Shown one piece after another: positions 3,664 to 44,300 of a DNA stretch of 64,000 nt. The DNA is taken from positions 104,254-168,253 of the forward strand of contig CAJINV010000005.1 of NCBI GenBank assembly GCA_905178155.1, read 5' to 3'. Made by a program: the position numbers and the translations under genes. The notes beneath the pieces are model-generated. The model was not told the DNA's origin, did not search any database, and saw nothing but the letters and a program-made list of their open reading frames with translations. Every line of letters starts with the position of its first letter. Positions within the stretch are counted from its first letter, which is position 1. The stretch comes from Amoebophrya sp. A120. Lineage: Eukaryota; Protista; Dinoflagellata.

Positions 3664-6600
3664 TCATATCTCCTCCAAATCATCAAAGTCTCTGGCGAGC
3701 TTCGTCAAACTTGCTCGGTCCACCCCCTTTTCTTCCTTTTTCTCGTGGTGGTGGTGATGGTGTTTGTGGTTCGGATCATCCGAATGATGATGGTGGTGGT
3801 GGTGATGCTGACCGCTTGTTTTGCCGCCCCCATCTGCCGCCTTCCCCTCCGAAATCGTGGCTGACTGCTTCGACGCGGGGTCTTTTTCACTCAAAGTGAA
3901 AGAAACACTTTTCGGGGACACGCCCTCTTCCTTCTTCGGAGCGGGTGGCGGGTGGTATGACGGGTTCTTCTTGGTAAAAGAGTGGGGTGGTGGGTGGTAT
4001 TCTTCGGTCTTTTGCGCAGACGCCGTGTCTATTTCATCCGGAGCCCCTGTTTTGGAAGATGAAGACGCAGGAGCGTCGCCCGGTTGCGGCGGCGGGTGGT
4101 AGGAGGGATTCTTCTTCGTGAATGAGTGCGCCGGTGGGTGGTAGTCTTCGGCCTTCTTTTGCACGGTCCCAGCAGCAGGATCTCCATCTTCAAGCGCACT
4201 TGTTTTCGAGGATGTAGCAGCAGCAGCACCACTTCCGACCACACCGTCCTTCGGCGACTGTGGCAAGATGATCGGCGTGGCTATTAGCCCCGGTTTCGTC
4301 TTTGCCTTCAAACTGCTCCGCGTGTTGGCTGCGGTGGATTCCGCAGAGGGCGGAAGTTGCACCGGTGTGTGCATCAACCCCCTTTTCACCTTCGGTTTGG
4401 ACCAGCCCTGCATCGGTGGATCGGCTTCAACAACCGCAGGCTCTACTACGGTAGCAGGAATCGGGTCCGGATCCAAGGCTGGCACTACTTCTGGGAGTAC
4501 TTCTTCCTCAGGTACCGCCGCACGCTCTTCTTCTTCCACTTGTTCAAGCGCTTTCGGCCGCTCCCACCCGTCCATCTCTGTCGGCGGCGCGAACGCTTCC
4601 CCGGACATGATCGGATCTGTGGACGCGTCCGCAGGTGGCGGCTTCTCTTGCTCCCCCTCGGGCTTGAACTTCGGTGTCACCGGTCTGCTGCGGACCAACA
4701 GCTCTTCCGCAGCCTGCTGCTGTGCACTACTAGTAGTGCCATCGTTATTCTGCGCCGCTGCACCTACTGTCGTTCTTTCGAATCCGAAGCCGAAGAAGTC
4801 ACTCATCTTGCTCGTGAAATCCACCGAATTTCTCGTCTCCTCACCCACCACCGCCCGCAGGATTGTCTGCAGCGCTCCCTCGATCCCGTTCAGCCGCAAA
4901 TTCAAGTGGTTGATCTGGCCGCTGACCTCGTTCAATCTCTCCGTAATCTTTTCGTTCGACGCGTTCATCGTCTCCGACAGCTGCTGCGCCTGCGCCGCAG
5001 ACATTTTCTGCCCAGGTCGGACGAACCCCGCGGTAGGCACAACCGCAGCAGTCGGCGACCCTGAAGGCGACGTTTTTCCGTGCGATGCTGACGAGTGAAC
5101 GTGTTTCCTCTTGTCCTTCGGGTTCACACCGCTGGGCGCTGTCATCTTCTCGTGGTGAATCCCCGCCGAGGGCCCGCTTCCGCCATCCCCGCCGGGGCTG
5201 TGACCTCCACCCCCTCCACCACCGAAATGCGTGTCGTCGTCGTGGACCGCGTGCTTGATTTCCATCATTTCCTTCCGGATTACCGGCACGTCCCGAACCA
5301 ATTTCAAAATCCGCTCCAACTCGATCGGTCTCGCGGACGTGACACATTTCACAATCTGCGTGCAGAACTCATCGATGGAAATCTTCCCGCCGCCGTCCGT
5401 ATCCAACATCTCGAATAACGATTCTGGATCTACCGTTCCCATGATGAAGGACAGTTCATTCTTCAAGTCTTCATTAGACTCCAACCCGGACACCATTTCC
5501 TCCTTCGTCAACTCCCCGGATTGATCCTCGTCGAACAGCTCAAACATCGCCCGCAATTCCGGCATCATGCGCTGCAGCCTCTCCGCTTTATACGCCAATT
5601 GCACTTCCTTGTCCGCCTCGGCCTGCGCGATCGCACCCTCGACGATCACGGCGGTCACGAGGTTCATCAAGGCGATCGAGACGATCAGGATGAAGGCCAT
5701 GAAGAATAATGCAAGAGCCGGTTCCCGCTTGATCAAGGGGAGATAGATCGCCCCCGCGGAATCGAGCGTCACGAACTGCACGAGAGTGACCATTATGACG
5801 AACAAGCCGGAAAAGTTATTATCCACAATGTGCAACAATTCCGCGTCGTCCAAGTACAAATCCCGGTTCTTCGTGATCACCTCCGCCGCCAAAACCGCAG
5901 ACACATACATCAATAGGAAGATCAACACCACCGTGTAGGACATCGTGGTCGCGGACGTTAACAGCCCCCTGACCAACATCCAAAGAGACCGGAACGCGAT
6001 CAGAAGTCTCACCGCCCTGGCCAGTCGAAGTAACCGGAGCACGCGCAACACCAATATCGGCCCCAGTTCGTCAGGGGAATGGGAAAACATGATGGGTAGA
6101 AACCAATTCGCCAAAATCCCGACACCTACCAAAACCGCGTCGAACATGACCCAGCCGGATTTCAGGCACCGCCACCCGAAGGCGTAGAAGCGAAGCCAGA
6201 GCTCGAACGAGTAGATGACCAAAAACAAATGTTCCAAAACGACAAAAGCCGTCGTGTCTTCGTTTTTCACCTCCGCCTGCGTTTCCCACCCGATCGTGAC
6301 GGAATTCACTAAAATCACGAACCCGATGATCAAGTCGAATTTCTGCGTCAGCAGCAACTGCTGTGCGTAGATCCGCCCTTTTAGCCAGTAAATCGCGAAG
6401 TCGCCGGTGAACTTCGTCTTGTGCTGTCGCCGTTCCGCGGCGGCCAGCAACTCGTCCGCATCCTCCAAATCCAGCGCCCCGACCTGTTTTAGCGATAACC
6501 CCTGGTCCTGGACCGCCTGTTCAAGCACACGCTTGTCCGTCGTCATTGCGCGCGAGAGGGAGGGAGTACTACTTTTGTTCCCCCCGAGCCGGCTCTTGCC

Positions 6601-7050
6601 GCTGTCTCCCAACAATGCCGCGGTGTTGCCCCGCGTCAGAATTGCTTTCGGGATATTGGTCTCCTCCTCGTCCTTGATTTTGACCACCTCCCCGTCCGGG
6701 CCGATCACCTCGTGCTGCGACAGATGGGACGGTTTTTCCGCGTGCGACGGTGCGGAGCCCAGTAACCCCGCGAGCAGCCCCTCGCCCGCGTGGTGCGGGT
6801 GGGAGTCCTTGCTTTCGCCGTCAAGGTCGCTGGGTCCTCGTTTCGCAAATTCCTCGTCCTGGAGCTTTTTCAGCGCCGTGGCCTCCGCCTCGGCCTTCAG
6901 CTCAGAAAGCCGCTTCTTCTGGTCCCCGGGCGACATCACCGTGGGGTGGTAGTCTGGCGGCTCCAGGCTGCGGGGCTGCGTTTTCTTGCGCTGCATCCCC
7001 GGGACCGCGGGGGGCCCGGTCTCCGAAGCGCGCCCCATCCACATTGTCAT
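3664..7050 (-). CDS. Single-domain (6TM) voltage-gated cation channel with two C-terminal EF-hands and a His-rich tail
   Basis: S4 LVLRVLRLLRLARAVRLL; pore TLVQFVTLDSAGAIY; S6 VSIALMNLVTAVIVE; EF loops DEDQSGELTKEE and DTDGGGKISIDE. Likely start MTMWMG at 7050; the ORF extends upstream to 7272. Confidence 0.9.
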   Translation of the reverse strand: MTMWMGRASETGPPAVPGMQRKKTQPRSLEPPDYHPTVMSPGDQKKRLSELKAEAEATALKKLQDEEFAKRGPSDLDGESKDSHPHHAGEGLLAGLLGSAPSHAEKPSHLSQHEVIGPDGEVVKIKDEEETNIPKAILTRGNTAALLGDSGKSRLGGNKSSTPSLSRAMTTDKRVLEQAVQDQGLSLKQVGALDLEDADELLAAAERRQHKTKFTGDFAIYWLKGRIYAQQLLLTQKFDLIIGFVILVNSVTIGWETQAEVKNEDTTAFVVLEHLFLVIYSFELWLRFYAFGWRCLKSGWVMFDAVLVGVGILANWFLPIMFSHSPDELGPILVLRVLRLLRLARAVRLLIAFRSLWMLVRGLLTSATTMSYTVVLIFLLMYVSAVLAAEVITKNRDLYLDDAELLHIVDNNFSGLFVIMVTLVQFVTLDSAGAIYLPLIKREPALALFFMAFILIVSIALMNLVTAVIVEGAIAQAEADKEVQLAYKAERLQRMMPELRAMFELFDEDQSGELTKEEMVSGLESNEDLKNELSFIMGTVDPESLFEMLDTDGGGKISIDEFCTQIVKCVTSARPIELERILKLVRDVPVIRKEMMEIKHAVHDDDTHFGGGGGGGHSPGGDGGSGPSAGIHHEKMTAPSGVNPKDKRKHVHSSASHGKTSPSGSPTAAVVPTAGFVRPGQKMSAAQAQQLSETMNASNEKITERLNEVSGQINHLNLRLNGIEGALQTILRAVVGEETRNSVDFTSKMSDFFGFGFERTTVGAAAQNNDGTTSSAQQQAAEELLVRSRPVTPKFKPEGEQEKPPPADASTDPIMSGEAFAPPTEMDGWERPKALEQVEEEERAAVPEEEVLPEVVPALDPDPIPATVVEPAVVEADPPMQGWSKPKVKRGLMHTPVQLPPSAESTAANTRSSLKAKTKPGLIATPIILPQSPKDGVVGSGAAAATSSKTSALEDGDPAAGTVQKKAEDYHPPAHSFTKKNPSYHPPPQPGDAPASSSSKTGAPDEIDTASAQKTEEYHPPPHSFTKKNPSYHPPPAPKKEEGVSPKSVSFTLSEKDPASKQSATISEGKAADGGGKTSGQHHHHHHHHSDDPNHKHHHHHHEKKEEKGVDRASLTKLARDFDDLEEI

Positions 7051-8151
7051 TTCAGAAAGATCGATGAGATTTTTCGGCTTGTTCTTCGAAGTAATGTAGC
7101 AAATTAAGCAGACAACCACGAGGAGTACTGAGATGCTTGGTAAATTGCAAATGTCCGCATACCGAAAGAAAATAATCCTCTCGAGAGATATAATTTTTCT
7201 GTGCGTGTTGAAGAAGGCTCTGCGCAAGAGCAAGCGACAGTTACGACTCTCAACGAAAACGATATGTAGCAACGACGAGTCTATTTTTTAGAAAACGATC
7301 ATGATACGATCCAACGAATCTTCGATAGCCCTGCATCTGCTCCTGCGCCTGCCCAGCGCGTCCCAGAGATTGCTATAAACGACAAGAACATGTGCGATAG
7401 GCGTAGGTAGTTCCAGTGCGGTGGAAAGCAGCAGCGTCTCTCTTACGCGATACTAAAGCGTTCGAAGCGATCCCTGATAAAAGGTCGTATGAGAGAGGAT
7501 ACTTACTAGGAGGGCCCTGATGTTGTAAGGTAGAAGGATCCTGAACATCTATGATGATGACCACATTCGTGAGATAAGGCATTAACCTTTCTTGATCAGT
7601 ACCGACATTTTTTCTCTGTCTCTGACTGCAAGGTCTAGCTGCAAGTTCGAGCAGTTTACATGAAGTCGACCTATCTCCGGAGTACTTAGAACACAGAGTG
7701 AAATCAAACTTTCTCGCGGGGAGTACAGTACTGCTTCTTCATGGAGAAATATAAACAAAAAGACCAGCGGTGCGGCTTTCCCGCAGTCTGAATGGAACCT
7801 GATGAGTCCTCCTGTGTATGAAACTTAGACTTATTCAAGAAAGGCCGCTGTGAAAGCAGCTTGCAAATAATCTCTCTGTCCAGTTTATTTTTGCCTGTGT
7901 CGAAAAGTTCTTTGAGAATCTTTTGAGAAGACCTCGAAACACAACTCTTCTTGACCAATGTGTAATATCTTTCTCTTCCGAAGAACGCAAAATCGTCCGG
8001 AGAACTTTCGCGATTTTTGCAGGAATTTTTGTTAATAGTTTTATCAAGTCTGACACCAAGTTGATAGATTGATACGTTGGCTTCCAAGTTCGAAGAAGCT
8101 GGCATTCATGCGCCCCGCCGATTAATGCGATACTCCCTCCTCTGCTTTGGC

Positions 8152-15730: not shown

Positions 15731-17791
15731 TCACGACCCTTGTGCCTTCTTACTGCCAGCCTTCTTGAACGCTTCAATGGCCATCAGTCTTGTTTTCTTC
15801 AAGTCTACCATGGGTGCATAGTATTTGAACTTTCCACTTTCCACGCCTGCTGCTGTACCCGCCGCGGATGAAGAGGAAGCACTATTCCCTTGTTTCTCCA
15901 GCGCCTTTTTGTTCACAAACAGCGGGTTTACCGCAGCTAGATTCAAATTCCCTTTCGCCGCCGCTGCGCCGCTGAGGTACTTCCCGTTGTACTTTTTCTC
16001 TTCCCAATTGTGCAGGTCTTTCGTCAACACCCCCGCCACCTCCGGGACGTATCTTTTCGTGTACCCGCACTGGGGATCCACCTTCTGCAACTGCGACTGC
16101 GCGTTCATGATGCGGAAATACGGCGAGCCGTCCGCCCCCGTCGAGCTCGACCACTGCCACCCGCCGTTGTTGCTCATGGGATCGTAGTCGACGAGGTGCT
16201 GTGCGAAAAATTTCTCGCCGATCCGCCAGTCCTGCAGCAGGTTTTTGGTCAGAAACATCGCAGTGACCATGCGGCACCGGTTGTGCATGAACCCCGTCTG
16301 CAGCATCTCCCGCATGCCCGCGTCCACCAGCGGGACGCCGGTGGTGCCGGTTTTCCACTTTTCCAGCGCGGCGTTGTCCCGTTTCCAGTCGATGTCGGCC
16401 ACCGTATACTCTTTCGTGAAATTCTGGTTGGAGAGCAGCGTCTTGCCGTCCAGTTCGAAGGCTGTAAGTAGGTACAATTTCATTTAAAAGACACTGTACT
16501 AATTCGTGAGTAAGAACAGAAGTTAGAGCATCGATTTCCCCCCTGCAAATTCGGAAAAAATCTTCCTGCGAGTATTGTCTGATACCAATTTTTAGTCCAA
16601 CAGAGTATTACAAGAACTTCTGTCTTGACAAGACCAAGTACCTTTCCCCTGCTGCTTCCCGAGCGAGCAGGTTCGCATCCCGGCGAGGATCCAGGGATGG
16701 TGCAGGGTGACGTATTGGTAGAAGTCCCGCCAATACATCTGGCGCAGAAAGCCCTCCTTGCTCGTCGCATCGCTGTCGGCGCGGCAGGTGACAAGCACAA
16801 AGGCCTCCCGCGCGGAGATCAGACCAAATTTGAAGTGCGGGCTGAGCAACGAACACTCCTGCTCCACGCGGTCGCGGTTGCTCAGATATTGATTGAACGG
16901 GTACGTTTCAAGTCGATGCAACGCGGCTTTCCGCGTCGCCGGCACGTGGACGCCGAGCTTGCGTTTGGTTTCACCACTAGATGGTTTCGCAGCTGCGTGT
17001 GCGCTCGCCGCACCACTCCCTCGGTACTGCGCCACTAGCGTCGACAAGTCGAAATTGGCGCCCACGGATGGCGCGTTTTTATTGTTCATTAAAAGCTCCT
17101 GTTCCGCCTGTTGCAGGGAATAAGATGCGCAAGTAGAAAAACTAATTTTCGGGACCGCAGTGGTGAGCAAGTGTTTGTCCACGTCGAATTTTCCTTTCAG
17201 AATCGGTTCCAAGGCCAGTTTTTTCGCCGCGTTGTAAAAAGGCGTGAAAACCCGGTACTTCGTCCCCGTCCCCGACCTCAAGTCGTGCAAGCCCCCTTTC
17301 GTGATGTTGTGATCCTCTATTGCGTGAAACGGCACTTGCAGCTTCTCCAGCTGTTCCTTCAGGCCCTGCTCCCGCAGTTTCGCGTACGGCGTGTAGTCCT
17401 CCGCGATGCTGACGTAGGTAACGGACTTACTCTCCTTCCGTAACGCCTCCACTAAGCGGGTAAGAACATCGGTATGCTTGCCGTAGAACACAGCTAATTT
17501 TTGCTTCAAAGCGGTGTTCAGGTCGTGCAGCGCGGCGAGGAGAAAGGCGAAGCTGTGGCTGCTGAAGTAGTCGCTTTCCTTCGTCTGCTCGGGAGTGAAG
17601 ACGAAGATGGGCAGGACCTTGTCGCATTTTGCGAGATTTGCAACTAACGCGCGGTTGTCCTCGATGCGAAAGTCCCGGGTGAAAATGTGGATGCCGATGT
17701 TGGTTTGCGCAGATGAAGAAGCGTCGACTTTGGCGCGTTTTGCAGCCGAAGAGTCGCCCGACTTCGCAGAACCGGTGCTGCTGCGCTTCAT
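15731..17791 (-). CDS. DNA photolyase (class I CPD photolyase-like), two exons
   Basis: N-terminal IHIFTRDFRIEDNRAL and YRVFTPFY; FAD domain SLLSPHFKFGLIS, WRDFY, GTTGVPLVDAGMREMLQTGFMHNRCRM, DYDPMSNNGGWQW. GT-AG intron 16462-16641 joins KQQGK-A-FELDGK in frame. Start uncertain (17791, or up to 18106). Confidence 0.9.
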
Positions 17792-18786
17792 GGTTCTTTT
17801 TGATAGCAAGAATGTTGCGGCGGTAGTAGGACGAGAAGTCAATACGTCTGTATCAATAACTCGCAAGAGTGGCGAAAAAGATAAAGAAGGGATTGCACTG
17901 TAACTACGTCGATTATCATCTAGTATTACTTCGAGCGACTTCCTTGGCATCAAGCCCAATGATGTTCTGCGTAACAAGTGTGTCTGTAATGCCGCTAGGG
18001 GAAAGGTCTTGTTCGAAACAGCGGTGTAAAAATTTTTTCGTAATAAAACTGGAGGACTCGTGAAGGGGTGACGTGCGCATGTTGCTGATGCGATACAAGG
18101 GGGCATATGAGCGTACGAGTAGAATGGTGAGAATGATGGAGCCTGAAGTTGTGTGTGTCATCAGTCAATTCCGCAGTCTGATGTGAAACTGGGTATGGTA
18201 CACCGCATTCACGCCTCATAGTCCCCGCACACGGCAACAAACGTGTCTGTGGGATTGGTATGGCGGCGTAAAGGTTAGTTGCACTTGCATATGAATGAGT
18301 AGTAGTTCATGAATCTAAAATCTGCACCACCTTCCAACTATGCGTCGCTAATAGGTGAAGCAATCCGCCAATGTTCTTGGCTTTCAGCCTTTACTGAACT
18401 TCAAGTCTGGAATAGCATGATGAAATTCGCCTCCAAATCAGTAGAATATTATACCCATCATCGTTGCTGATTTCTTGAAGAACTGGTCCACAGATGACTG
18501 TCGAAAAAGTATAGGAAACAAGTACAAGTTGTTTGAAAAATGCAAAGAAAGTTCCAGTCTTCGTTGCTAGGCAACTGCATTCTGACATCGTTACCCTCGG
18601 TATCTTCTACAACGAATGGCGATCATTTAGTCCATAGAACTTAGCACGCCGCTCTCTGCCTTCATAGACACAAACAAATAAATTCGATTTTTCTCGTCAA
18701 AAGCAGGGGTAAAAATCATACCACGGTCCGGCCTTGCCTATCAGCACCCCTTTGTTCAAAAAACCACAGCGTTCTTCTGGCCGCGA

Positions 18787-21700
18787 TCACGCATCGGCCG
18801 GCATCTGGGATCGGTTCACCTTGGTCTTGTCCGTGACCGTCTTTCGGCACAGTGGGCACGTGCTCAGCGACTCGTGCTGCGCGCACGCTTCGCACGCACA
18901 CTGATGACCGCATGGCAGGAAAATGATATCGTGTTCTCTGTCGCAGCAGATCAGACAGGTCTCCGGATTCTGCTCCTTCATCTGCGCAATGCGTCGCTTT
19001 GCGCGTGCAAGTTTGTCTGCGATCTCCTGGCGCCGGCGGTGCTGCTGCTCGACGAGCGGCACTGCGGTTCCCCCCAGGAGGCTCCTTGCCCCGTTAACAG
19101 AGCCGCGCATCAGACGCGCGTACAGGGACGCTGACAACGGCGCCGTCGCCGTCCCATCGTGCTCGAGCCCGATCGAGATTTTTGCTGCGGCAATCACCAA
19201 GTCGGGGCGGAGCAGCGGGGGGTAGAGCCGATATTCCGCAGCTGCTAGCCACGGTGCCGCGCCGGCACGCAGCGAGGCAAACAGACCACCGACATTGCCA
19301 CACCGACGGAAGTTCTCCCGCCCGTGACGCCGATCCAGTTCTGCTAGAAACGAGGCCGGGTCAAAAGTTTCGGGCTCGCAGGCGAGATGCTCGCTCCAAA
19401 ATTGCAAAAAGCTGAAATTCAGCAGACAGGAAAATGATGCGCGGCTTTCTAGCTGCTCTTGCTCACGTTCTAGCTGCTGCATCGCCTCGTGGATCTCCAG
19501 AACGTCCAACACCTGTGCGTAGAGTCAAAATTGCCTATTGGTATTTTTTCACCATTCTACTTTAGCGACAGCAGTGCGATCAATGCGACAAAGCGTCGAA
19601 ACAATGATGATCCTGCTGTTCAATGGGACCGAATTACTTACTCAACATTTTGAAACTGCACATTCATCATGAACATTGTGGTGATACAGCCGTGGTTTTT
19701 TGACACAGAAAAACATGCGAGATACGGTGTCAGTGGAGTCGAAGATTCTCGCCGAAGCTGCGAGAAGTTGTTGCACACGCTGAAACCAGGAAATGTCTCC
19801 CAAATCCAGAATTTGCAGGATGCGCTTCGCTTTCTCCTTCGGGTCGCGGACGTCAGCGCACTCCTGCAGTGCTGCAAGGCCTGTCTGAAATGCGTCCAGC
19901 ACGGAGAGATCGCGGTGTTCCGGCGGTACGGTGTCTTCCGGCAGGACCGGGAAGAGGCTGCTCAGACCGCGCATGTGGGCGTGTCCGTCGACACCCACGG
20001 TCGACGTGAAAAGGCTCGGGTTGAAATAGGGCGCCAGATTGTGGAGATCCACATTGCGACAGGATATGCCGGTTTTGTGGTGCCCCCCAGTTGACTCCTG
20101 TTCGGCGCCGGATGCCGACGTGAGGCCCGGGGCATAGGTGGCAGCTACGTGCGGGGCGAGAAAGCTATCCAGCGCCAGTCGCACGTAGTGTGTATCAACC
20201 AGCTGGGGCCGACTAGGTGCAGCAAGCAAGCCCGCAGGCTCGGGCGATGCGTTGTCAGAGACGACAGAGCTCTGAGCGAAGCCCCGACTGAGGGCCGCAC
20301 GCACCGCGTTGGCTTTCATGATGGTTTGCAGAGAGATTTGATCAACCACTCTCTTTTCCGCGTCGCAGCACCTGAGCGGTAGCTCCCCGCTCAGTGAAAG
20401 ATCGCCGAGCCGAAGTCGCGTGATCGCACCTGTCGCTAATTCGAAATCGACTGCCAAGCTGTACTCCTGCGGGGCAAAACACAAACACAGCTTGGTGGCA
20501 AGTAAACTGTCCTCGTCGGCAAGCAACGTGACGCCTTCCACGCGGCTGTTTTCAATCGCTTGCGGTCCCATAAGACCGAAGACGTCTTTCTTCGTCACTT
20601 CTTGTGTATTTTGTACCACTCTACTAGCAAAGACCCCCACAAGAACGCCCGGCTTCGGTTTGGCTTCTGCGCTACGCAGCAGCGAGGCGTTCGTCCACGC
20701 AGCGACATCGTTTGACCCGAGAGCTTTATCCAGAGCCTCCGTGAGGCACTGGTCGAATCCCGTCGCAACTGCCATCGCGCACGGATTTTTGTTGGAAGCA
20801 CAATACGCCACACGCCTGACTTGCTGCTTGCAAACCAGCGCGTCTCCTAGGTCGAATGGTGAATATGCCGCAAGTGGTCGTGCGCTGGAGAAAATATCAT
20901 TCCGGTCTGCAGAAGAATTCCTTTGCTGTGCACAAGCGAGAGCCTTTCTGAAAGCAGCCGAACCTCGATTCAACTCCTTCTGGTTCGCTGCATTTTCCGC
21001 CGTCGACAGCATGTCCTCGGGTGCGAAGAGCTCCCACTGAATCTTCAAGCTGCTGGTCGGCCGTCCGAGCACGATTTCCTGATACTCGTCCTTTGTCGCA
21101 TTGCTCAGTATCGCTAAGTTTGCGCTGAGACCACTCGCCTCGCCCCGCTTGCAGTTCAGGGGAAACCGTACTTGCGCATTTCCCGCACGACCGCTGGCGT
21201 ACAGCTCGAGTAACTGGCACCCTTCCGGTAAGAACCGCAACTTCGATTTGACGCCACTGTACGCCTGTTTCACTTCCGCTGACAACGCACCTACTTCGGG
21301 ATCCTGTTGCCCGTGGTCCGCGACTGTCCCCAAGGTTGGCATGTTCGGGCCTCCTGCTCCGCGGTCCCGTCGAGCACAAGACGTCGAGCAGTCCTCGTCG
21401 GTTGCTTTGTCAGACTTGGTCTCCGCGAAAACAATATGAACGCGCCCCTGCACGGTCTCGCCGTTCTGTTTACCGAAGCCCTTCCGGCCTTTCTGCCCTC
21501 CCTTCTGGGAGTTGTCGGCATCGAAAACGAGCTTCTGGACCTCACAATCCTTTGCGACGGAGCCCAACACTTCGTCTCGAAGAACGCTTTTCCACTTGTC
21601 TGCCGCGACAAGCTCTCTCGGCATTTCGATCGGGAGTGTGACGGCGCGACGCGGATCCACTTGGTGCATGGCAACGAGCCGCTGCATCTCTTTGCCCCCC

Positions 21701-24700
21701 GGGTTTGCTGCCCCCTGTTTTGGTCGCCCGATGAGGAAGTTCGGACTAAACGTCGCCGTAAGGACAGTCAGGAGGACTTCGACGGGCGCGGCAAACAACG
21801 AGCCGATATGCGTTGCGGTGTTTCTTTCCCCTACGCTCACTAATTCCGGGTTCAGCACTGCTCGCAAAACCTCCACTTGGAGAAACATCTCCGACTCCGC
21901 GTGCAGAAAGGGTTCGATCCGATCCAAAAGCTCGACGAGCTTCACCAGGAGCACAACCAACTTCTTTGGCACAATGGCACCAGCATACTGACTCGCAAAG
22001 CGCTTGGAAAACTGCCAGAACAAGCTGTACTGCGTGTGCGGCTGCAGCAGCTTGCGGCGCTCGGCTCTCAACCTCGCAACTTCCTCCAGCGAGTCGGCGT
22101 ATGCTTTCTCGAGCATCTTCCATTCTGCGTCCGTGTACCAGCCTATGAACGCTTCCCCAGCTGCCGGACGACCAGCTTCACCCTCAGAAGCGCGAGATGC
22201 GCGACCGCCGGATCCGGCCTTTCCGAAAACAGACACGCGCACCTTCTCAGCTACTGAAGAGACTTGCTGCAAAATTCCGGAGTTCTGTGCAGGTGTCTCT
22301 TCCACGGGGACCTCTGTTACACCTACTACCACTCCCGTGCCGCTGTCAGTAGAGCTGCTACTACCGTGGTGTCCATCTTGGCTCACCGGCTCCTCGTGTA
22401 CATCTTCGTACGTGAGATCGCTTGTTGCTTTCTGCAGCGAGCTTTTCGATGCTCGTTTCCAACGCCCATGCATTTCAGAATACAGACGGCCCTGCTTCTG
22501 GTTTTCTTTCAGCAGGTGTTCCTCATTGATACGCAGCTGCTCCTTGATTCGATCGGCCTCTGCGACTTTGTACCGCGCGAACTGCACCAGCCACTCAGCT
22601 AGCAGGTTCCGCAGCATGAGCGGCTCGGAGCACGCCCCTGCGTCAAATATTCTTCGCACTGTTGCGGAGGCGCGGTTACGCTTTCCAAGTTCCGCATCGT
22701 CTTTAATGACAAGGTGTGACGGCTGCGAGAACGGCTCCGGCTGCGATAGGCCCACAACCACAAGTAGAGCGTCTGGCAAACAGCCGAAAAGAGCCCCGTC
22801 CACGATCAGCCGGCACAGCCGCGCATCAATCGGCAGCGCTATCATGAGGTGCGCGAGAATGGTCGGGTCTGCATCGTCGCCAATACCGGTCAAGGCCCCC
22901 ATTTGAGAAAGGGAATCCACGGAGTGCTCGAGCTCCTTCAAGTCAGGAGGCTCCGGAACCAGAAGCAAAATTTCGCGCGGTTGCAGTTTCTTCGGCCGCT
23001 CCCAGCGGCTAGCCGCCGGCTGGACGTTGCTGGAGACCACGCTTGTTCTGGTGGATTGGGAAATCGGCGTTTGCGCTGGGAACTCAAGCTCTTCTTGTGT
23101 CGCGCGGTCCGCCGAGCCCGATCCGCTAGCTCGCCTTCCGTTCGAGGAAGCAGGCGGTGGGCTCTGCAGTGAAGGAGTGGCAACATGATCGGAATGCGAA
23201 GACGAAATCCCGGTGGAGTTCGACCTCGACGCACGGCCGCGTACTCCATCCGAAATTGCAGACACTCGTCCCCGATGAACACGCCTCCATTCCGGTGGGA
23301 GTGGCAATGGGGGTAGGCGCTGCGACAAAAATTTCGCTTGCATGTACGTCTTCTCAAGGCTGGCCACCTGGATTTCGGGCGGATCAAAGGGGCGCCGAGA
23401 GTTGAAGAGCCCGCGGCTCATGAGGCGAACACACACTCCGGGGAACACGCGGCCCGCGCGGCCGGCTCGCTGCTCCATCGACGCCTGCGAAGCCCACACA
23501 TCTTCCAGGACCGCCGAGTGCTTGCTGCTGTTGTAGACCTGCTGCCGCTTCAGCCCCAGGTCGATCACTACGCGCACGTTCGGGATCGTCAGAGAGGATT
23601 CGGCGATGTTGGATGTTAGGATGACGTGCGCCGTGCCTGGCGGAGGTGGCAAGGAAACCGCACGCTCCTGGTCCTCCTGCGGTATCGTCGAGTGGAGTGG
23701 GAACACCTCGTAGGTAATGCCGGGGTCAAAGCCGTGCCGGTTGTACAGCGAATAGCTCGGGTCTTCATCGATGTACCACGCGAGATGCTCGCTGAGCTCC
23801 GTGATCTGCGCGATGCCGGGAAGAAAGATCAAAATGCTCTCACCGCCTTCAGCCAGATCGCGCACGAGATCTGTTATGCATTCCTTCCAGTGGCTCGGGG
23901 GTTCTGGCCTCCTCGTCGTGCTCGCACGACGGCGATTCGCTCCTGCTGTCGCGTCGCCGTCGTCTTCACCCTGTCCCTGAAGATGATGGGGGCCGCGAGA
24001 TAAGTTCTCCTCCGCTCGTAAAAACTTCTCCTGGAGCCAAACGCTACGTTGGCGCCCCTCAACCTCGATGCGCAATTCTGAGTACTTCCGATCAGAGTGC
24101 CGGCCGTCCGTCCAGTCGTCCAGGTACAGCACCTGCACGGGAAAGCGCTTTGCCCCCACGGCTATCGGCTGGACAGTAGGCGCCGGCACGCCGGGTCTCC
24201 GCTCCGAGGGGCCAGAGATCGAGTTCAGCTCCCCAAAGTATTGCGCAAACAAGTTGCCCTGCAACGTAGCGCTCATGACAATGAGCTTGAAATCTGCAAC
24301 AAGGGCGAACAGCCGGAGGATTAAGCTGGCGAAGTCCGCGTCGATGCTGCGCTCGTGAACCTCGTCGAGAATGATGTGCGTGAATTGCTTAAGCCGCGCC
24401 GGGTTTTGTACGCTGCTTTCGAGCAGGTGCCCCGTGGTGCACAACAATATCTCGGTCTTGTCGGAGTCCCGCGCAGAACCCCCAATGCGGTACCCCACAG
24501 ATCTACCGGGCCCTTCCTCCCCCAGCAGCACTGCGATACGTTGCGCTAACGTCTTACACGCCATTCTCCGTGGCTGCGTCATCAAAATGCGCGGTTTCCG
24601 GTGACAGCTAGCGTCCTGGAGGTGCATTTCGCGGACGAACACGGGCACTCGGGTGCTTTTCCCACAACCAGTTTCGCCGCGAATGAAGGTTACGCGCTGT

Positions 24701-26316
24701 AAGGCGATCGTCCTTTGAATGTTCTCCTTGTGTTCGTCGATCGGAAGCGCGACTGTCTGCAGATCCGGCGGCCTGGTGGCTGGCCCTGGTTGTGCTTCGC
24801 GGTGTCGCGGGTTCCAGTTCCGACTGTGCGTAGCCGAGTACACAGTTTGGTTGTGTTCTGTTGCCCACCTGGACTGGTTACTGGAAGCGCTAGTGCCATG
24901 CTTTCGGTACGAATCGGGAAAGAAATCCGCTAGCGAGGCCGGCTCCCGCATTTCAGGCGCGAACCTCCTCGCGGACTCCGATGACGCTGAGGATCTCCGC
25001 CAACTCCCGGAGCTGCAGCTGCTTGTTCCGCTACTTCGGCCCTCGGATTTACAGCCTTGCGATGTAGGTCCTCCTGACCACCGCTTCTGCTTGGAAAACG
25101 GTGGAAGTTTGCGGTTCCCGGAGCGCCGCACCGCGGTTCCGTCGCTTTTGACTTCGACATCGCGCGAACCTTCCATTGAAACATCAATGACTGCGGGGAG
25201 AACATCGTCTGCGATTTCCAATTTTTTGATGGCATTGCAGTTTCGCAATATTTCCAATGACAGCCAGCCCGCCGGATTTGTCTCTATCTCTTTCCGAAAG
25301 AAATCGTCCTTTCTTAGATTTTCATCGCTAAGGTAATACTCGATCTGACGCCGCAGCTGTGCCTGTTTCGCTTCGTCAAGGACGGGCGCAGCTGCTGCGG
25401 ACGAAGAAGTGCTTGATCTTGTTGGCACTGGAGGAGCACCCGAGCCAACCGGAGGTGGCGTCGTAGAAAGCGCTAAATGACCGCCCGTCGATTCGCATTC
25501 GTCAAAAACGCCCCGTAGCAAGCGCATTTCCGTTTCCTTGCATCGTTTCTTCTTCAGCTTGTGTACCCCTTTCGCACGCACCTCGGTGTCGAGTTTGCGC
25601 AGTGATGCAGCAATCTCGGGAAAACGCTCGGTGTCGAGTTTGTCGAGCGCTGAGGCATGTGGCCCTTCGTAGTCCTCGTCGTAATCTCTGTATCGCAACA
25701 CAAAAAGCCCCACGTCGGTCAGAATCTTTCGTACTTCATCCTTGTCTCCGTTTGACACAGCAACGTGAAGTGCTGGCTCTTCCCAGTGCAAGTCGAGACC
25801 CATCTTTGCACGCTCCATCGCGTTCCCCTCGCGCGTGACGATGCGGATATCCCTTTCTAGGGCCGGAAACTTCGCGAAAAAGTACGCGTACATGCGCCTA
25901 ATGCGCGTCCCGGCGCTGCGCCCGCCACCGAAAATATCAACGAGTTCGGGGTACTCGATGAAATGCGCCTCGGCGTTGCGGATCATCCACAAAAGGTCTT
26001 GCAGCCCGTAGCCCGACTTCACTTCTCCGGTGTTCCGGTCGAAATGTCCCCAGATCTTCTCCACGACGATACCATCAAGCTCCTGCCACCAGGACTTGTA
26101 CTCAAAATAGAACTGCCACGCCGCAAACTGGTGGTACTTGTAAGCGCCGTCGCGGTCCTTGCTGGACATGCGCTTGCACAGGCTGAGCAGCTCTTTGTTA
26201 CGGAGCTCCTCTTCGTCGGAGAACTTTGCATCCTCATCAAGCACGCTTCCGCTCAACGCAGACCCTGTGCTGGACGCGGCGCCATAAGTGGAGGAGGACG
26301 AGGAAGAGGAAGGCAT
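18787..26316 (-). CDS. Multidomain DEAH/RHA RNA helicase fused to a KEN (RNase L/IRE1-like) domain, ankyrin repeat, La motif and C-terminal C3HC4 RING
   Basis: KEN-like LQDLLWMIRNAEAHF...YAYFFAKFPAL; ANK-like PALHVAVSNGDKDEVRKIL; La QIEYYLSDENLRKDDFFR; helicase GETGCGKST, TQPRR, DEVHER, MSAT, TSNIAESSLTI, QRAGRAGR; RING CLICC...PCGHQCACEAC...CPLCR. GT-AG intron 19513-19725 (STDT|VLDV) links the RING exon in frame. Confidence 0.88.
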
Positions 26317-26862: not shown

Positions 26863-29206
26863 TCATGGCTTCTGCCTCCACTTCGTTCTCTTCGACTTCA
26901 TTTCCGACTCGCCCTCTGGTTGTGCGGGTGGTCCACCCTCCCCGTAATTGTACTGTGCTCCCCCAGAGGACCCCCCGATGTTGCTGTCGTGGTAGTCCAT
27001 GCCGTGGAACCCGTTTGGCGTCCACCGGTCGTTTCTGTTCCCGGACCCGCGCTTGCCCTTCTTGCCCTTGCCCTTAGCTGAAGAACCGTTGTTGGCAGAA
27101 AAGTCCTCGTTTTTGTCGTAGAAGAAGGTTTTTTTCGCGTCCACGATAGGGTTCACGTAGTAGTCCGGAAGCAGCGGCTTAATCCGCGAGTCCACCACTT
27201 CCCAGGGGGTGTGCAGTAGCAGCTTGCGCGTCGCCGGGTCGGATTTCGCGACCTGAAATAGAAAAGTTCAAGTTGGCATGGGGACCGGCTATATTTCGTT
27301 CGCAAAAATCGCAACTGATGATGTACCCAACTGCGGCAACAACTCGTTGCAAAAATCGCAACCGACATTTGTCTGCACGCAACTACTTTCGGGACGAATC
27401 GAATAAAAGAAAACTTGCCTATAGCAAAAGTCAACAGCCATCTACTTGCATCACATCACAACAAGCTACCTCCAGTCCCTCCTTCAGTTCCCAGATCCAG
27501 TGTTCCATGAATTTCCCCTCTGCCTCGTACTGCTTGCTCTGTTTCACGACGTTAAACACGTTGTCCCGGGTCTGGAACCCCACGCCCGCGATCGTGATCC
27601 AGTTGCCGTAATTTGCCGCCACGTCGTGGTCCAACAGCGCGTGCTCGAAGTACTCCGCGCCCCACCGCCAGTCGATCTTCAGCGTGAACACCAGAAAGCT
27701 GGCCACGTTCTGCCGGCCCCGGTTGCTCATGAAACCGGTTTTGCGCAGTTCCCGCATCTGCGCGTCGACAAAGGGGAACCCGGTCTGCCCAAGAACCCAC
27801 TGGTTGAACTTCCGCACGTCGTTGTCCCACTTCCGCGTCCTGCCGGTCAGCCCGCCTTCGTAAAAGAAGTAGTTCTGGTGCTTCTGGATCGCGAAGTGGA
27901 GAAAATCCCGCCACAGCAGCTCGAACACCACCCAATAGGTCGATTCGTTTCTGGTGCCCGTCGTGTCCTCGTACAGCGCCAGCTCGTGGACGATGGTGCG
28001 GGGGGACACGCAGCCCGTCGCGCTGTACATGGAAAATTTCGTGGAGTAGTACTTCCCGAGGGAATCGTTCCGGGTCTTCTTGTATGTGGCCACCGCGTGC
28101 GTGTTCCAGAAATAGTCCTTTAGACGCTGCAGCGCGGCCCTCTCGCCACCAGTGTAGCTGGGTTTGGTTCCGGGCTGGAGGTCTTCGATCGTCGCCTCAG
28201 GGAGATGAGAGGCACGCCGGCTCTGCTCTTGATGTCCATCCGTAGTTTTCTCCATTGTTGCAACTCGCAGCAGCTCTGCCCAAATGGCATCTGCGGAACC
28301 TCCATTCACTGGAAACTGTCGGCCCTTCGAAGAAGATGAGTCTTTCTCGACGAGACCTTCATCCCCGAACAAACTTCGCAAGCTGACCACTTGCAACGGT
28401 GCTGGATCTCTGTTCCCGTTGCTGTTGTTGATGAGACAACGGGGTGCCACGTCGGCCATCACCGCTTTCTCTTCCGCTATTGCAAGCGACCGCGCGACAG
28501 CGGGACAATAGGTCCGACAAAACTCCCACGCGGGCACGGTGTTGGACTCGCGATCTTTTGTTAAACACTGCTCGACGACTTGGCGGAAACTGGTGTATTG
28601 GTCCTTTAACACCGGCTTCTTGCCGTCCGCGAAACTCCCGTCCAGGGGCCGAAAAGGGAAATTTTCTTCCGCAATGAGGGTGTCGTCCGTCACCAGGTGC
28701 ATCTTCGTGGCTTTGTGTCTTTTCGCAATCCGCTCCGCGCTCTTTTCCGCCTTCTCTTCGTAACTCCCGCGTTCCCGCGTGCAGACGATGTGTGCGAAAT
28801 GATCGCCAAATTTCTCCACAAAACTCGGCAGATCCAGCTCCGAGAGCCAGAGGAGTGGTTCTTCGGACTTGCTTGGCGCAGGGGGTGCGGCAGAAGGCGT
28901 AGCACATCTGCGCCGAAGTGTCTGCAGCGATTGTTCAATGTCATCGAAGCAGTCCTTGTAAAACTGTCGCCGCAAGGGCCCACAAGCTGGTAACTTTGTT
29001 TCGTTCCCGAACCGACTCCACTCCCGCTTTTTGTCCAGACACGCGACGAAGCACACCGGTAGCCCGAAGCTCCGCGCCTTCTCGATTCCGCGGCTGTCCG
29101 ACAGTCGCAGGTCGCTCTTGCGAAAGATGTACAGTACTGCGGACTGGGCCGCTCCGGCCGCTCGTGTGGGAGGTTGAAAACCGCTCATGGGGGAAGTTGG
29201 AGGCAT
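26863..29206 (-). CDS. CRY-DASH: Cryptochrome DASH, two exons
   Basis: GGERAALQRLKDYFW, YKKTRN, STKFS, NESTYWVVFELLWRDF, TGFMSNRGRQNVASFL, DVAANYGNW, FNVVKQSKQY. GT-AG intron 27253-27469 continues into VAKSDPATRKLLLHTPWE. Basic Gly-rich tail. Confidence 0.92.
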
Positions 29207-29915
29207 AGATGTTGAGTGAATCTATTCTTCAAAGTGGATTCACAAAAGAGTCCTCGTGTCACTACTTCTAAAAGAGTACGAATCTAGTTCTTGATCCTGC
29301 AGCTGTAACTACGTCTCCCCTCTCAGTCAAGAAGCGCAGCTGGAAGACAACTTTATCAAGTTTTGCGTTTGACAATCATTCCAATAGGTCGTGGTCGGTT
29401 CTAACAAGGGAAGTTGCTGATGTCGTGCGTCGTGTACTACTACAGAGCTAGAAAAGCGAGGGGTGTATCAAAGGGTAGCTTACTTAGAATGAAAAATGCG
29501 AGCGGGGTAACATCAAATCTGGGTAGTGGACCTGAAAAAAATGTAGTCATTGCTGGGTTGCAAATCTGACGACCCGGAAAAATACGCTGCAAAGATGCGG
29601 TTTGGCAAAGGACCCAAAAAGTGGCCTCAACGAAGAACATTGTCCGATCTAGCTCTACTGGTGGTTGACACCAAGACCGATTTTGCATTTGAACTACTGC
29701 ACCACGTAAATGCTTTTCGAACAGCACCTCTTGCTCTCTGTAGTGGCTCTGAATGCTGCTGCTCATGTTGCTTTCATCTTTCTTGCATTTGCAATCGCAC
29801 CGAGAACGAAGTCCTGCTGGTGCTTCAAACTTGTCCTCTATTCTCGTGTTCATACGTAACCGCCGTTCGTTGATGAACGAACTACCGGTACTGTTGTGTG
29901 TGTCACATTACAGAA

Positions 29916-41390: not shown

Positions 41391-44300
41391 CTATTTCTCC
41401 TCCCCTTGCAGACCTTGCAATTTTTTGTTCATCATATGCCTGGAGGCCCTTGCGAGAAGTTTCGAGGGTCCGGGCAGGCTGTTAAACGTGCCCGATATCC
41501 CCTTCACGCCCCCCGCCTCTCGCAGCTCTTGTAGCGAATGCGAATTCTCTGAATTCACAGCCGGGGAGTCCAGGACGTCCAGCGCGGGCGCCGACGGGGC
41601 AGTTGCTCTCTCCGGTTCCACCGCCGACTGGTTCTTCTTGCGTTTTTGCAACTCCGCCTTTTCCCGCTGCTTCTTTGTCCGCATCAAAAGGGAGGATTTT
41701 TCCTCGTAAAACAGCATGGTCTGCTGTTGCTGTTGCTCCGCCTCCGCGTTACTCCGCATGTCTGCGGTGGATCCCGGGGGACCGGGTGCTGCTCCCTGCT
41801 GTGCTTCGTTGCTCTGATCCTTTTGTAATTCCACCGGTTGTTCGGATTGCTCCGCCGGAGCGGCTCCACCTCCCGATGAACTACCTCCAGCTGGTGGTTC
41901 CTGCTCGGGACCCGATCTCCAATCCTCCGTAGCATTCGACTGGGTCGTCGGATCCCCGCCGATCCCGCTTGGCGGCGGCGGCCGGCGCGCCAGGTAGCGC
42001 GCTTCCGCCTGCTTGCCCTTGATGGCTTGAATCCTGCGGTAGTTCCCTTCGGGAGACAGCGGTGAGTACATGTGCCCGTGGAGCCCGGCCTGCGGTCGTG
42101 CGCGGGTGCCCAGCTGCCGGTGCGGCTGCAGGGTTTCAAACAGCCCCACGGGGTTGACCTGGTTCTGCGTCACCGTCGGACTTTGGTAATTGGTCCCTTG
42201 CAGCACCGCTTGTGCCACGGGGCTCTTGACCGCCGCCCCGATGGAGTCGCTGAGGCCACTGACGAGGTTCCCAAACTGGTCCGTGTCGCGTGGGGGATCG
42301 AGCTGACTGATTACCTTGTTTTCGTACTGGTGGGTGTCGCGTGGACTGTTGGCCCGGTTTCTTGCGGCGTTCGCGCGGTCCAATAGCTTTCCGACATGGT
42401 GTGCACCCAAGCCGCCGGGACCGCCAGCCAGGCGCTGGCGCACGTAAAACTCTTCTTCTGTGTCGCGCGGGGGATCGACTTGGCTCAGCACTTTGTCGTA
42501 CTGGTGGGTGTCTCGCGGGCTGTTAGCTCGGTGTCTCGCGGCGTCTGCGCGGTCCAACAAGTTTCCCACGTGATGCGCGTGCAAACCACCGGGACCGCCC
42601 GCCAGGCGTTGGCGCTCAGCATAAAGCTCTTCTGCTTCTCTCTCCGCCTGCAAGGTATCCCGTGGACTGTTAGCTCGGTGTCTTGCGGCGTCTGCGCGGT
42701 CCAACAGATTTCCGACGTGGTGCGCGTGCAAACCACCAGGACCGTGGCCCATGCGCTGCGCAACTACCTCGCTGCTCAGGCGACCACCGCTATGTCGTAT
42801 CAGTCCGGACCCCACTCCCCGGTCCACCATATTCTCGCCCATGCCGGAAGCCCCGACTGCGCGGTCGATGATGTTGTCAAAGGCTAGCCCAGAACCCACA
42901 CCGCGATCTTCTGTTAATGCCGCCCGATTCGCCATCTGACTGCGCGGATCTGAAAATGTCGTTCCCCTCGCCAGTTGTGCTGCGTCAGCTTCACTCCCCT
43001 CCTGCAGGTGCGGGTCCACTGCGGGAACACCACCACCACCGGAGGACGAGTCATTCTTGTTGTGCACCATGTCGTCCACGTTCTGTGAGTGCAACAAGTA
43101 TTCCTGGTCGCCGTGCTTTCCGATAAGAACGCCCTGCGCGACGTCCACGATGTTTTTGACCATCGCGTCCTCCTGCGCTGTCATGCTGGAGGAAGGAACA
43201 CTTGACCTTTTCACCAGCCGGTTACCGTCCGCATCGAATTCGGCGTTCATCGCCGCCGGATCCGCCTCGGTATCGGCGATTTTCATGTCCCCGGCGGTCG
43301 CGAGGTTCATGCGCACGTACCTTTCCGGGTCCGTGGGGGATTTCGCGTACCCCATCACCATTTTTTCCATTTCGTCCTCCAGGTTTTTGTGCATCTGCGC
43401 CAACTGCTCGGAAAACGGCGGCGAGGGTTTGGGGGAAACAGAGTGTTCCATATCCGGGATGATGATCTGGCCCCGCATGATCCGAGAATCCACGATTTTT
43501 TTCACGCCGAACGGGGATTCGCCCCTTCGCGGGGAGAGGACGAGCATGCGGTCTTTAAAGTCTCTGCGCTCCACGCCGTGCCTCCGCAGGGACGCAACCA
43601 TCTCGGGCGACAGCCGTCGGGGGGAAAGATCGCCGCTGCCGTCGTAATCGGCGACCAAACCTTTCTTCCGCAGGTACTCATCAATCTCCTCCCCGGATTG
43701 CACTTTGCTGTACCGCTCGGTCCCGGTATCGTTCGGCCCGGTGCCGACGGGCGACACGATCTTGTCCCGAGCTTTCGACATGGCTTGTCCGGCTTTCCAG
43801 TGCAGGTCACGGGCGTTGGACACCTCCTTCAGCTTTATTCGTGGCAGTGCGTGAGGCCAGACCGTCATCGGGTCGCGCTGCGGCGAGCCCGGTGGGCTTT
43901 TCAGGATCCGATCGATCTCCATTTCTGCTTCTGCGAGGGACGGTGACGTCTGCAGCATCAAGTTCGTGGGTGCAGAAATGCCCTGCGGAAACCCGGCGTC
44001 CCGCACCGGCCCCTTGGGTCGCGGCCGGTCGCCGCCGGAATCCTGCAACAAAGCCTCGGCCCCGAGGAGGCCGCCACTAACCTGGTTGGCCCGCGCCCAC
44101 ATGTCGGCGTCCATGTTTTCCGGAATCAAGTGCGGACGCGGGCGGAAAGCGCCCGTACCCGCAAGCCGCCCAGCTTCGTCGGGTCCCTGGCCCGCGCGGT
44201 CTTTCCGCACCCTCGGTGGCGGCGGCGCCGACACGTACTGTTGCTTGCGCAGCTGGTTTCGCAAGGCCGCTAAGTAGCCCGGGTGCGAACCCTTGTGCAC

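What the first reader, a model, noticed from the sequence alone, without database searches (positions are those of the whole stretch)
18787..26316. KEN (RNase L/IRE1-type) nuclease - ankyrin - La - DEAH helicase - RING fusion: candidate one-gene RNA defence or surveillance system
Seen: at ~25860-26110 the protein reads SWWQELD...LQDLLWMIRNAEAHFIEYPE...MYAYFFAKFPAL (RNAEAH at 25963-25980). It is followed by an ankyrin-like repeat, a La motif (~25120-25360), an intact DEAH helicase core with an HA2-like region, and a C3HC4 RING on the last exon. Knowledge: the KEN domains of RNase L (DLLKFIRNLGEH...YFQKTFPDL) and IRE1 (DLLRAMRNKKHH...YFTSRFPHL) carry this R-N-x3-H HEPN-type catalytic motif and normally need an adjacent kinase domain to dimerise. 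No kinase is visible here. Inference: RNA binding by the La and helicase modules could drive KEN dimerisation and RNA cleavage, with the RING coupling it to ubiquitination, a logic reminiscent of OAS-RNase L or ZNFX1. I do not know of a described protein with this architecture. Since IRE1-type nucleases start non-spliceosomal splicing at RNA hairpins, a link to the hairpin introns in this window is conceivable but is pure speculation.
Basis: partly seen in the sequence, partly recalled or inferred. Interest (0 to 1): 0.88.

Follow-up and report, generated by a model that had tools for sequence, protein, structure and literature searches.

The report
Kinase-free RNase L nuclease on helicase
A single spliced gene in a dinoflagellate-like protist joins an IRE1/RNase L-type nuclease domain, without the kinase that normally switches it on, to an RNA-binding La motif, an RNA helicase and a RING finger, and likely acts as a one-protein machine that grabs, unwinds and cuts unwanted RNA.

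Summary
The gene (minus strand, 26316-18787) encodes 2438 aa from two exons. Its 213-nt GT-AG intron is skipped in contigs of 3 of 4 runs from one sample, so the RING exon is spliced onto the helicase exon. The N-terminus (aa 33-170) is a KEN domain. Pfam PF06479 scores 25.7 bits (cut-off 23.3). A predicted model best matches Ire1 (Z 9.4) and RNase L (Z 7.5), next hit 4.7. R113/N114/H118 align with Ire1's catalytic R1056/N1057/H1061. No kinase or membrane helix was found. La, a DExH helicase with all motifs and a complete C3HC4 RING are confirmed; the ankyrin unit is weak. Two other proteins share the kinase-free KEN-ankyrin module and keep R-x4-H. New here: the helicase belongs to a Tudor-less spindle-E-like clade in which 34 of 120 relatives carry an N-terminal FEN/XPG-like PIN nuclease domain, while this gene has KEN in that position, an apparent nuclease swap. 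None of the 120 has KEN, La or RING. Activity, dimerisation and target are untested, the full fusion is known from one gene, and the hairpin-intron link has no support.

The parts
19726..26316 (-). Exon 1, coding (aa 1-2197), from the first in-frame ATG after a stop
   Evidence: Unbroken ORF; patchy cover by contigs of one sample
25807..26220 (-). KEN (IRE1/RNase L-type HEPN) nuclease domain, aa 33-170
   Evidence: PF06479 25.7 bits; model aligns to Ire1 981-1108 at Z 9.4 and RNase L 582-722 at Z 7.5
25963..25980 (-). R-N-x3-H motif, R113 N114 H118
   Evidence: Aligns with yeast Ire1 RNKYHH; R and H kept in P0123 and P0125
25681..25779 (-). One ankyrin-like helix pair, about aa 180-212 (weak)
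   Evidence: Motif shared with P0123 and P0125; no Pfam hit; Atlas lead only, for P0125
25117..25356 (-). La motif, aa 321 to about 400; no adjacent RRM detected
   Evidence: PF05383 E 4e-16 over aa 321-367
23281..24747 (-). DExH (DEAH/RHA family) helicase core, aa 524-1012; motifs I GETGCGKST, Ia QPRR, II DEVH, III SAT, IV FLPG, V TSNIAESSLTIP, VI QRAGRAGR
   Evidence: about 40% identical to its best relatives
22993..23283 (-). Ser/Pro/Arg-rich insert of about 100 aa between the core and HA2, absent from relatives
   Evidence: BLAST coverage gap, on average 6 of 124 hits cover the aa 1001-1100 bin
22549..22992 (-). HA2-like region, aa 1109-1256
   Evidence: PF21010; shared with relatives
19513..19725 (-). 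213-nt GT-AG intron, phase 0
   Evidence: Skipped in contigs of X1, X3, X4
18787..19512 (-). Exon 2 (aa 2198-2438 and stop)
18844..18957 (-). C3HC4 RING, aa 2383-2420: all eight zinc ligands and an Arg after the last Cys, preceded by a charged, likely coiled-coil stretch
   Evidence: PF13920 E 9e-13; sequence

Best explanation
The gene encodes one protein with a kinase-free KEN nuclease domain, a La motif, a DExH helicase and a RING finger, which likely works as an RNA-triggered surveillance nuclease against foreign, mobile-element or faulty RNA. Shown: architecture, splicing of the RING exon, KEN fold of the model, intact R-N-x3-H motif, intact helicase motifs and RING ligands. Inferred: (1) La and the helicase bind a single-stranded RNA end and the helicase moves along it using ATP; (2) two copies on one RNA, or a dimer held by the C-terminal coiled coil and RING, bring two KEN domains together, doing the job that the kinase does in IRE1 and RNase L; (3) KEN cuts without metal and leaves a 2',3'-cyclic phosphate; (4) the RING ubiquitinates the complex or bound proteins to clear or reset it. 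In origin, a KEN-ankyrin module would have taken the N-terminal place that a FEN/XPG-like PIN nuclease holds in many members of this helicase clade.
For: KEN identity from four angles: Pfam; a profile search of the PDB whose only 2 hits at E<=10 are Ire1, E 0.085 and 0.089; Foldseek, all listed rows IRE1, best E 0.031; VIA-align over 48,161 chains, Ire1 Z 9.4 (rmsd 3.7, 123 aligned) and RNase L Z 7.5 (rmsd 3.5, 111 aligned), next 4.7. R113/N114/H118 match Ire1 R1056/N1057/H1061, and H1061 carries most of the catalysis (PMC3149027). R and H are kept in 2 of 2 true homologs, at 45% and 31% identity. 34 of 120 helicase relatives share an N-terminal domain; 3 pass the Pfam XPG_I cut-off, 9 of 18 others score weakly to XPG models, and seven acidic positions are kept in 21-27 of 27 rows. 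One more relative carries a 3'-5' exonuclease domain (P0063). So nuclease-helicase coupling recurs in this clade. A Tudor-bearing TDRD9-like group is the nearest outgroup in the FastTree tree. Kinase-free KEN expansions were predicted to be defensive RNases (PMC3710099).
Against: The full fusion is seen in one gene only: 0 of 120 helicase relatives carry KEN, La or RING, and no long KEN-bearing relative was found. Sequence scores for KEN are modest, and Z under about 13 can be a common arrangement for helical folds (note). The model has mean pLDDT 60 from 3 sequences. Ire1's general-base Tyr1043 has no clear counterpart: Y103 lies 10 residues before the Arg, not 13, and the homologs have F or W there. 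N114 is I or H in the homologs. 13 of 17 members of its own subclade lack the PIN domain, so loss and gain may be unrelated events. No gene-family expansion typical of defence genes could be tested, as no genome is held. The flanking genes are photolyase-family genes and give no functional hint.
Confidence: 0.5

Rival explanations
1. The KEN domain is active, but the protein does lineage-specific housekeeping: processing of a defined RNA (rRNA, tRNA, snRNA) or clearing of stalled ribosomes, with helicase, endonuclease and E3 in one chain.
For: La motifs bind cellular transcripts, and the Las1 HEPN processes pre-rRNA (PMC3710099). The closest solved helicases include DHX29 as well as spindle-E. 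The gene is expressed in culture-type runs. The nuclease, helicase and E3 combination in ribosome quality control is recalled, not tested.
Against: A core housekeeping gene should have full-length orthologues; none was found. The clade is patchy and carries many different accessory domains.
Confidence: 0.22
2. The KEN domain is a non-catalytic RNA-binding or decaying passenger picked up by a helicase family that readily gains and loses domains; the protein is an ordinary RNP-remodelling helicase with an E3 tail.
For: No dimerising kinase; Tyr general base unclear; single occurrence; relatives show varied add-ons such as WW, S1, R3H and PAM2; the PIN domain looks partly degenerate in the closest relatives that have it (P0002, P0076).
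Against: R, N and H are all intact, and R and H are kept in homologs at 31-45% identity; the domain is full length.
Confidence: 0.2
3. The fusion is an assembly or annotation artefact, and KEN-ankyrin-La is a separate gene or is spliced out.
For: No contig bridges 25048-25324 or 23940-24216. The two DNA-like runs that hold all words may be the source of the assembly. P0125 looks like a stand-alone 268-aa KEN-ankyrin protein.
Against: 2197 codons without a stop; GC and GC3 of KEN (0.58, 0.78) resemble the helicase (0.60, 0.73); contigs cover parts of KEN, ankyrin and helicase at 99% identity or more, with no joint other than the one intron.
Confidence: 0.05
4. The protein cuts hairpin (non-canonical) introns in an IRE1-like, non-spliceosomal splicing route.
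For: IRE1 cuts stem-loops to start splicing (PMC3149027); Amoebophrya genomes hold many non-canonical hairpin introns (PMC7789003).
Against: All 4 junctions seen between 15000 and 30500 are GT-AG; the gene's own intron has z +1.20; no RNA ligase gene was seen among the 10 ORFs scanned; the same paper reports nearly all spliceosome subunits (passage).
Confidence: 0.03

Closest known systems
IRE1 and RNase L (KEN/HEPN RNases)
   Same: KEN fold and R-N-x3-H motif; an ankyrin-like unit in the same chain, as in RNase L.
   Different: No kinase or pseudokinase, no membrane helix, no luminal domain. KEN is N-terminal and the single ankyrin-like unit follows it, whereas RNase L is ankyrin-kinase-RNase (PMC10400998). 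Helicase, La and RING are added.
Solo KEN expansions of Oikopleura and monocots (PMC3710099)
   Same: KEN separated from its kinase and predicted to be an active defensive RNase.
   Different: Those are described as solo or fused to ubiquitin-like or BRCT domains; no helicase, La or RING fusion is listed in the passages read.
Spindle-E/TDRD9 and the Tudor-less, PIN-bearing DExH clade
   Same: Helicase core; second-best PDB hit is spindle-E (E 1.2e-59); falls in a myzozoan subclade, SH-aLRT 98.
   Different: No Tudor domain; no FEN/XPG-like PIN domain; KEN, La and RING instead.
ZNFX1
   Same: RNA helicase with an E3 ligase in one chain; RNA binding stimulates its E3 activity (bioRxiv 10.1101/2025.09.05.674436, abstract).
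   Different: ZNFX1 is an SF1 helicase (listing) with an unusual RING-like E3 and no nuclease noted in that abstract; here an SF2 DExH helicase, a standard C3HC4 RING and a KEN domain. Analogy only.
DZIP3/hRUL138 HEPN family
   Same: A eukaryotic HEPN domain fused to RING and ankyrin domains (PMC3710099 Table 1).
   Different: A different HEPN family; no DExH helicase or La motif listed.

Membership tests
KEN domain (PF06479, HEPN superfamily) | Profile score above the curated cut-off | tested here: met
   25.7 bits vs 23.3 on aa 1-205; 21.1 on the whole ORF
KEN domain (PF06479, HEPN superfamily) | KEN helical fold | tested here: met
   Predicted model: Ire1 Z 9.4, RNase L Z 7.5, next 4.7; model pLDDT 60
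KEN domain (PF06479, HEPN superfamily) | R-x4-H motif with a polar residue after R | tested here: met
   R113 N114 H118
KEN domain (PF06479, HEPN superfamily) | General-base tyrosine (Ire1 Y1043) | tested here: inconclusive
   Y103 is 3 residues closer to the Arg; F or W in homologs
KEN domain (PF06479, HEPN superfamily) | Dimer-dependent RNase activity | not testable with these tools
   Needs biochemistry
IRE1 | Kinase directly before KEN; membrane helix | tested here: not met
   No kinase Pfam hit, no HRD/DFG/Gly-loop motifs, and the top hydrophobic windows lie inside helicase regions; only 32 low-complexity residues precede KEN
RNase L | N-terminal ankyrin repeats, then pseudokinase, then RNase | tested here: not met
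   Order is KEN then one ankyrin-like unit; no kinase
DEAH/RHA helicases | Motifs I-VI and HA2 | tested here: met
TDRD9/spindle-E orthologues | Tudor domain | tested here: not met
   No PF00567 hit; present in P0106
TDRD9/spindle-E orthologues | Groups with Tudor-bearing members | tested here: not met
   Falls in a separate clade from the Tudor-bearing rows; sampling is limited to search hits
PIN-DExH clade found here | N-terminal FEN/XPG-like PIN domain | tested here: not met
   The profile hits 34 of 120 relatives and not this protein at E<=10
C3HC4 RING E3 | Eight zinc ligands | tested here: met
   C2383 C2386 C2398 H2400 C2404 C2407 C2416 C2419
Ankyrin repeat | Profile match | tested here: inconclusive
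   No Pfam hit; motif and Atlas lead only
La-related proteins | La motif followed by an RRM (recalled definition) | tested here: inconclusive
   La motif met; no RRM found by Pfam in aa 301-438 or the whole ORF

The most novel reading that the evidence does not exclude
A protist has built an RNase L-like immune effector in one gene with no kinase and no second messenger: the helicase itself senses the RNA and switches on a KEN nuclease that replaced the family's PIN nuclease, while the RING couples cutting to ubiquitin. It would be a eukaryotic counterpart of bacterial NTPase-HEPN defence proteins and would open up a PIN/KEN-DExH family of swappable nuclease-helicases.
Probability: 0.3. Interest if true: 0.87.

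Novelty: new variant of a known kind. Interest (0 to 1): 0.68.

Why it matters
The two characterised KEN nucleases, IRE1 and RNase L, both use a kinase fold to assemble. A natural KEN domain wired to a helicase tests whether RNA loading alone can activate this nuclease, and small constructs make that test simple. It also points to a nuclease-helicase family spread over dinoflagellates, diatoms, oomycetes, sponges and others, which the passages read from a PIN classification (PMC5499597) do not mention, and gives a candidate for RNA-level defence in marine parasitic alveolates.

Tried and rejected
Single-sequence fold of aa 23-339: pLDDT 43, not used. Homodimer prediction of aa 33-204: no verdict, score 0.00, alignment not used, own fold uncertain; no evidence either way. 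Parts without contig cover prove nothing. Protein searches for long KEN-bearing relatives found none among 7988 and 7991 candidates; both are word-limited, so this is weak. The representative search gave 4 hits: the window's own fragment P0122, true homologs P0123 and P0125, and P0124, rejected as a repetitive tape-measure-like chance hit. Viral contigs (0 of 90 pattern matches), prokaryote genomes (0 of 135) and BFVD (best E 1.3) gave nothing. The one metagenome locus (L001, 1 of 344) is a false hit on the strand opposite an EF-Ts-like gene (identified by eye). Single-sequence PDB search gave nothing useful. Atlas on the KEN region: best scores 0.88, including Csm6 HEPN clusters, a lead only. 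PADLOC and NCBIfam gave helicase-only matches and one weak RING model. No Pfam family was found in aa 1273-2378. Three look-ups of earlier findings returned nothing. Precedent searches in the paper library found no such architecture; subscription journals are mostly missing, the supplement of PMC10400998 could not be read, and only a 4,325-character file of the PMC3710099 supplement was held, so a listing there cannot be excluded. No whole genome is held, so paralogues, an IRE1 gene and RNAi genes could not be checked.
Full report
Gene structure. On the minus strand an ORF runs from ATG 26316 without a stop to beyond 19725. Contigs of runs X1, X3 and X4 skip 213 nt with GT..AG ends (19725-19513); X2 shows no such joint; the four runs are one sample, and their RNA status is a guess by the tool, but X1 and X2 contigs also skip three neighbouring introns. 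In X1 one 1672-nt contig joins 21195-19724 to 19510-19311, so the RING exon is spliced to the 3' part of exon 1. The spliced product is 2438 aa. Cover of the 5' half is patchy: KEN, ankyrin and helicase pieces are covered, but no contig bridges 25048-25324 or 23940-24216. The link between KEN and helicase therefore rests on the unbroken 2197-codon exon. The neighbours on both sides are photolyase-family genes on the same strand, so no kinase gene lies upstream. The long ORFs that look like genes are all on the minus strand; with the helicase's relatives, this suggests a syndinian or dinoflagellate-like host (inference; unidirectional clusters are described for Amoebophrya in PMC7789003, passages).

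KEN domain. Pfam PF06479 scores 25.7 bits against a cut-off of 23.3 on the first 205 residues, and 21.1 on the whole ORF. A search of 1.84 billion representatives gave 4 hits: the window's own fragment, one chance hit, and two real homologs, P0123 (101 aa, 682-nt contig) and P0125 (268 aa, 935-nt contig). Both continue from KEN into the same ankyrin-like motif and keep R-x4-H; the residue after R is I or H. P0125 matches over 191 columns at 29% identity, E 9e-22, and has only about 30 residues before KEN, so it too has no kinase in front of it in the record held. A profile of the three sequences finds only yeast Ire1 in the PDB (2 hits at E<=10) and aligns R113/N114/H118 with the Ire1 RNKYHH motif. 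PMC3149027 (passages) assigns H1061 as general acid (at least 3x10^5-fold), N1057 and R1056 to phosphate binding, and Y1043 a tenfold effect; a counterpart of Y1043 is unclear here. An AlphaFold2 model from the three sequences (pLDDT 60, about 70-84 in the core) returns only IRE1 in the listed Foldseek rows (best E 0.031, none under 0.001). Against 48,161 chains, Ire1 scores Z 9.4 (rmsd 3.7, 123 aligned, residues 981-1108) and RNase L Z 7.5 (rmsd 3.5, 111 aligned, 582-722); the next row is 4.7. No single score is strong, but sequence and structure pick the same two proteins. No kinase motif and no convincing membrane helix were found.

Other domains. The La motif (E 4e-16) has no RRM detected after it. 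The helicase has motifs I-VI intact, with DEVH as motif II; its best solved relatives are DHX29 and spindle-E. The RING has all eight ligands. About 1100 residues between HA2 and RING have no Pfam match, though parts match relatives weakly.

The helicase family. The search returned 3385 hits among 7980 candidates; I examined the 120 listed. A FastTree tree of 119 of them plus the query (P0015 dropped for coverage) and an IQ-TREE tree of 48 chosen rows place the query on a long branch in a subclade with apicomplexan, Vitrella, dinoflagellate and Amoebophrya sequences (support 0.986; SH-aLRT 98), apart from the Tudor-bearing TDRD9-like rows. None of the 120 has the KEN-ankyrin module, La or a RING. 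However, of 47 relatives with 300 or more residues before Walker A, 32 are linked by BLAST in that region and an iterated profile collects 34; the profile includes its own hits, so the BLAST count is the independent one. Three pass the Pfam XPG_I cut-off, 9 of 18 others score weakly to XPG models, and a 27-row alignment keeps the MGV-GL start and seven acidic positions in 21-27 rows, the pattern I recall for FEN/XPG-like PIN nucleases. The domain occurs in 34 of 107 non-Tudor rows, 0 of 7 rows of the Tudor group, and 4 of the query's 17 subclade relatives, where it looks partly degenerate in the two rows displayed. The query lacks it and has KEN-ankyrin-La at that position. I read this as a nuclease swap; since 13 of the 17 close relatives also lack PIN, loss may have come long before the gain.

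Mechanism. Most likely (0.5) the protein is an RNA-triggered surveillance nuclease: La and helicase engage an RNA end, two copies meet on the RNA or through the C-terminal coiled coil and RING, the paired KEN domains cut, and the RING adds ubiquitin. All of these steps are inferred from family knowledge. Rivals are a housekeeping RNA-processing or ribosome quality-control role (0.22), a non-catalytic passenger (0.2), an artefact (0.05) and hairpin-intron splicing (0.03). Against the last: the four junctions seen locally are canonical and this intron folds no better than shuffles; I did not examine hairpin introns elsewhere in the window.

Precedent. PMC3710099 (passages, section 9 in full, and one short supplement file) reports KEN fused to kinase, ankyrin, CCCH, ubiquitin-like and BRCT domains, solo KEN expansions in Oikopleura and monocots, and a different HEPN family (DZIP3) fused to RING and ankyrin. 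PMC10400998 (passages; supplement unreadable) says most RNase L homologs have a kinase and that ankyrins were gained more than once. ZNFX1 (abstract and outline) is a functional analogue only. PMC5499597 (passages) defines the FEN-like PIN group and, in the passages on helicases, names no DExH fusion. PMC12898128, PMC12787238 and PMC12550465 (passages) added nothing. Seven library searches found no KEN-helicase-RING protein.

Verdict. A real, expressed and apparently undescribed architecture built from known parts: a new variant of the HEPN/KEN effector theme.

Noticed in passing
P0117, P0119, P0121, P0002-P0004, P0048, P0057, P0068 and others (34 of 120 hits): A widespread eukaryotic family with an N-terminal FEN/XPG-like PIN domain fused to a spindle-E-like DExH helicase; usually annotated only as spn-E, TDRD9 or HrpA-like. 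Worth its own study.
   Followed up: partly
P0063 (Calypogeia, 3343 aa): Same DExH helicase clade fused to a 3'-5' exonuclease and a second, SF1-type helicase.
   Followed up: no
P0125 and P0123: Kinase-free KEN-ankyrin proteins on short unnamed contigs; P0125 may be a complete 268-aa stand-alone protein.
   Followed up: partly
window 26863-29221 and 15731-18157: Two photolyase/cryptochrome-family genes, each with one GT-AG intron, flank the gene directly on the same strand.
   Followed up: partly
window 19824: One contig each in X2 and X3 has a 255-letter loose end here; possibly another transcript sharing a short stretch.
   Followed up: no
window 41394-55208: Long GC-rich, repeat-rich ORFs on the minus strand (2334, 1446 and 669 codons); the two scanned have no convincing Pfam family.
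   Followed up: no
window 3667-7287: Ion-channel gene with EF hands.
   Followed up: no
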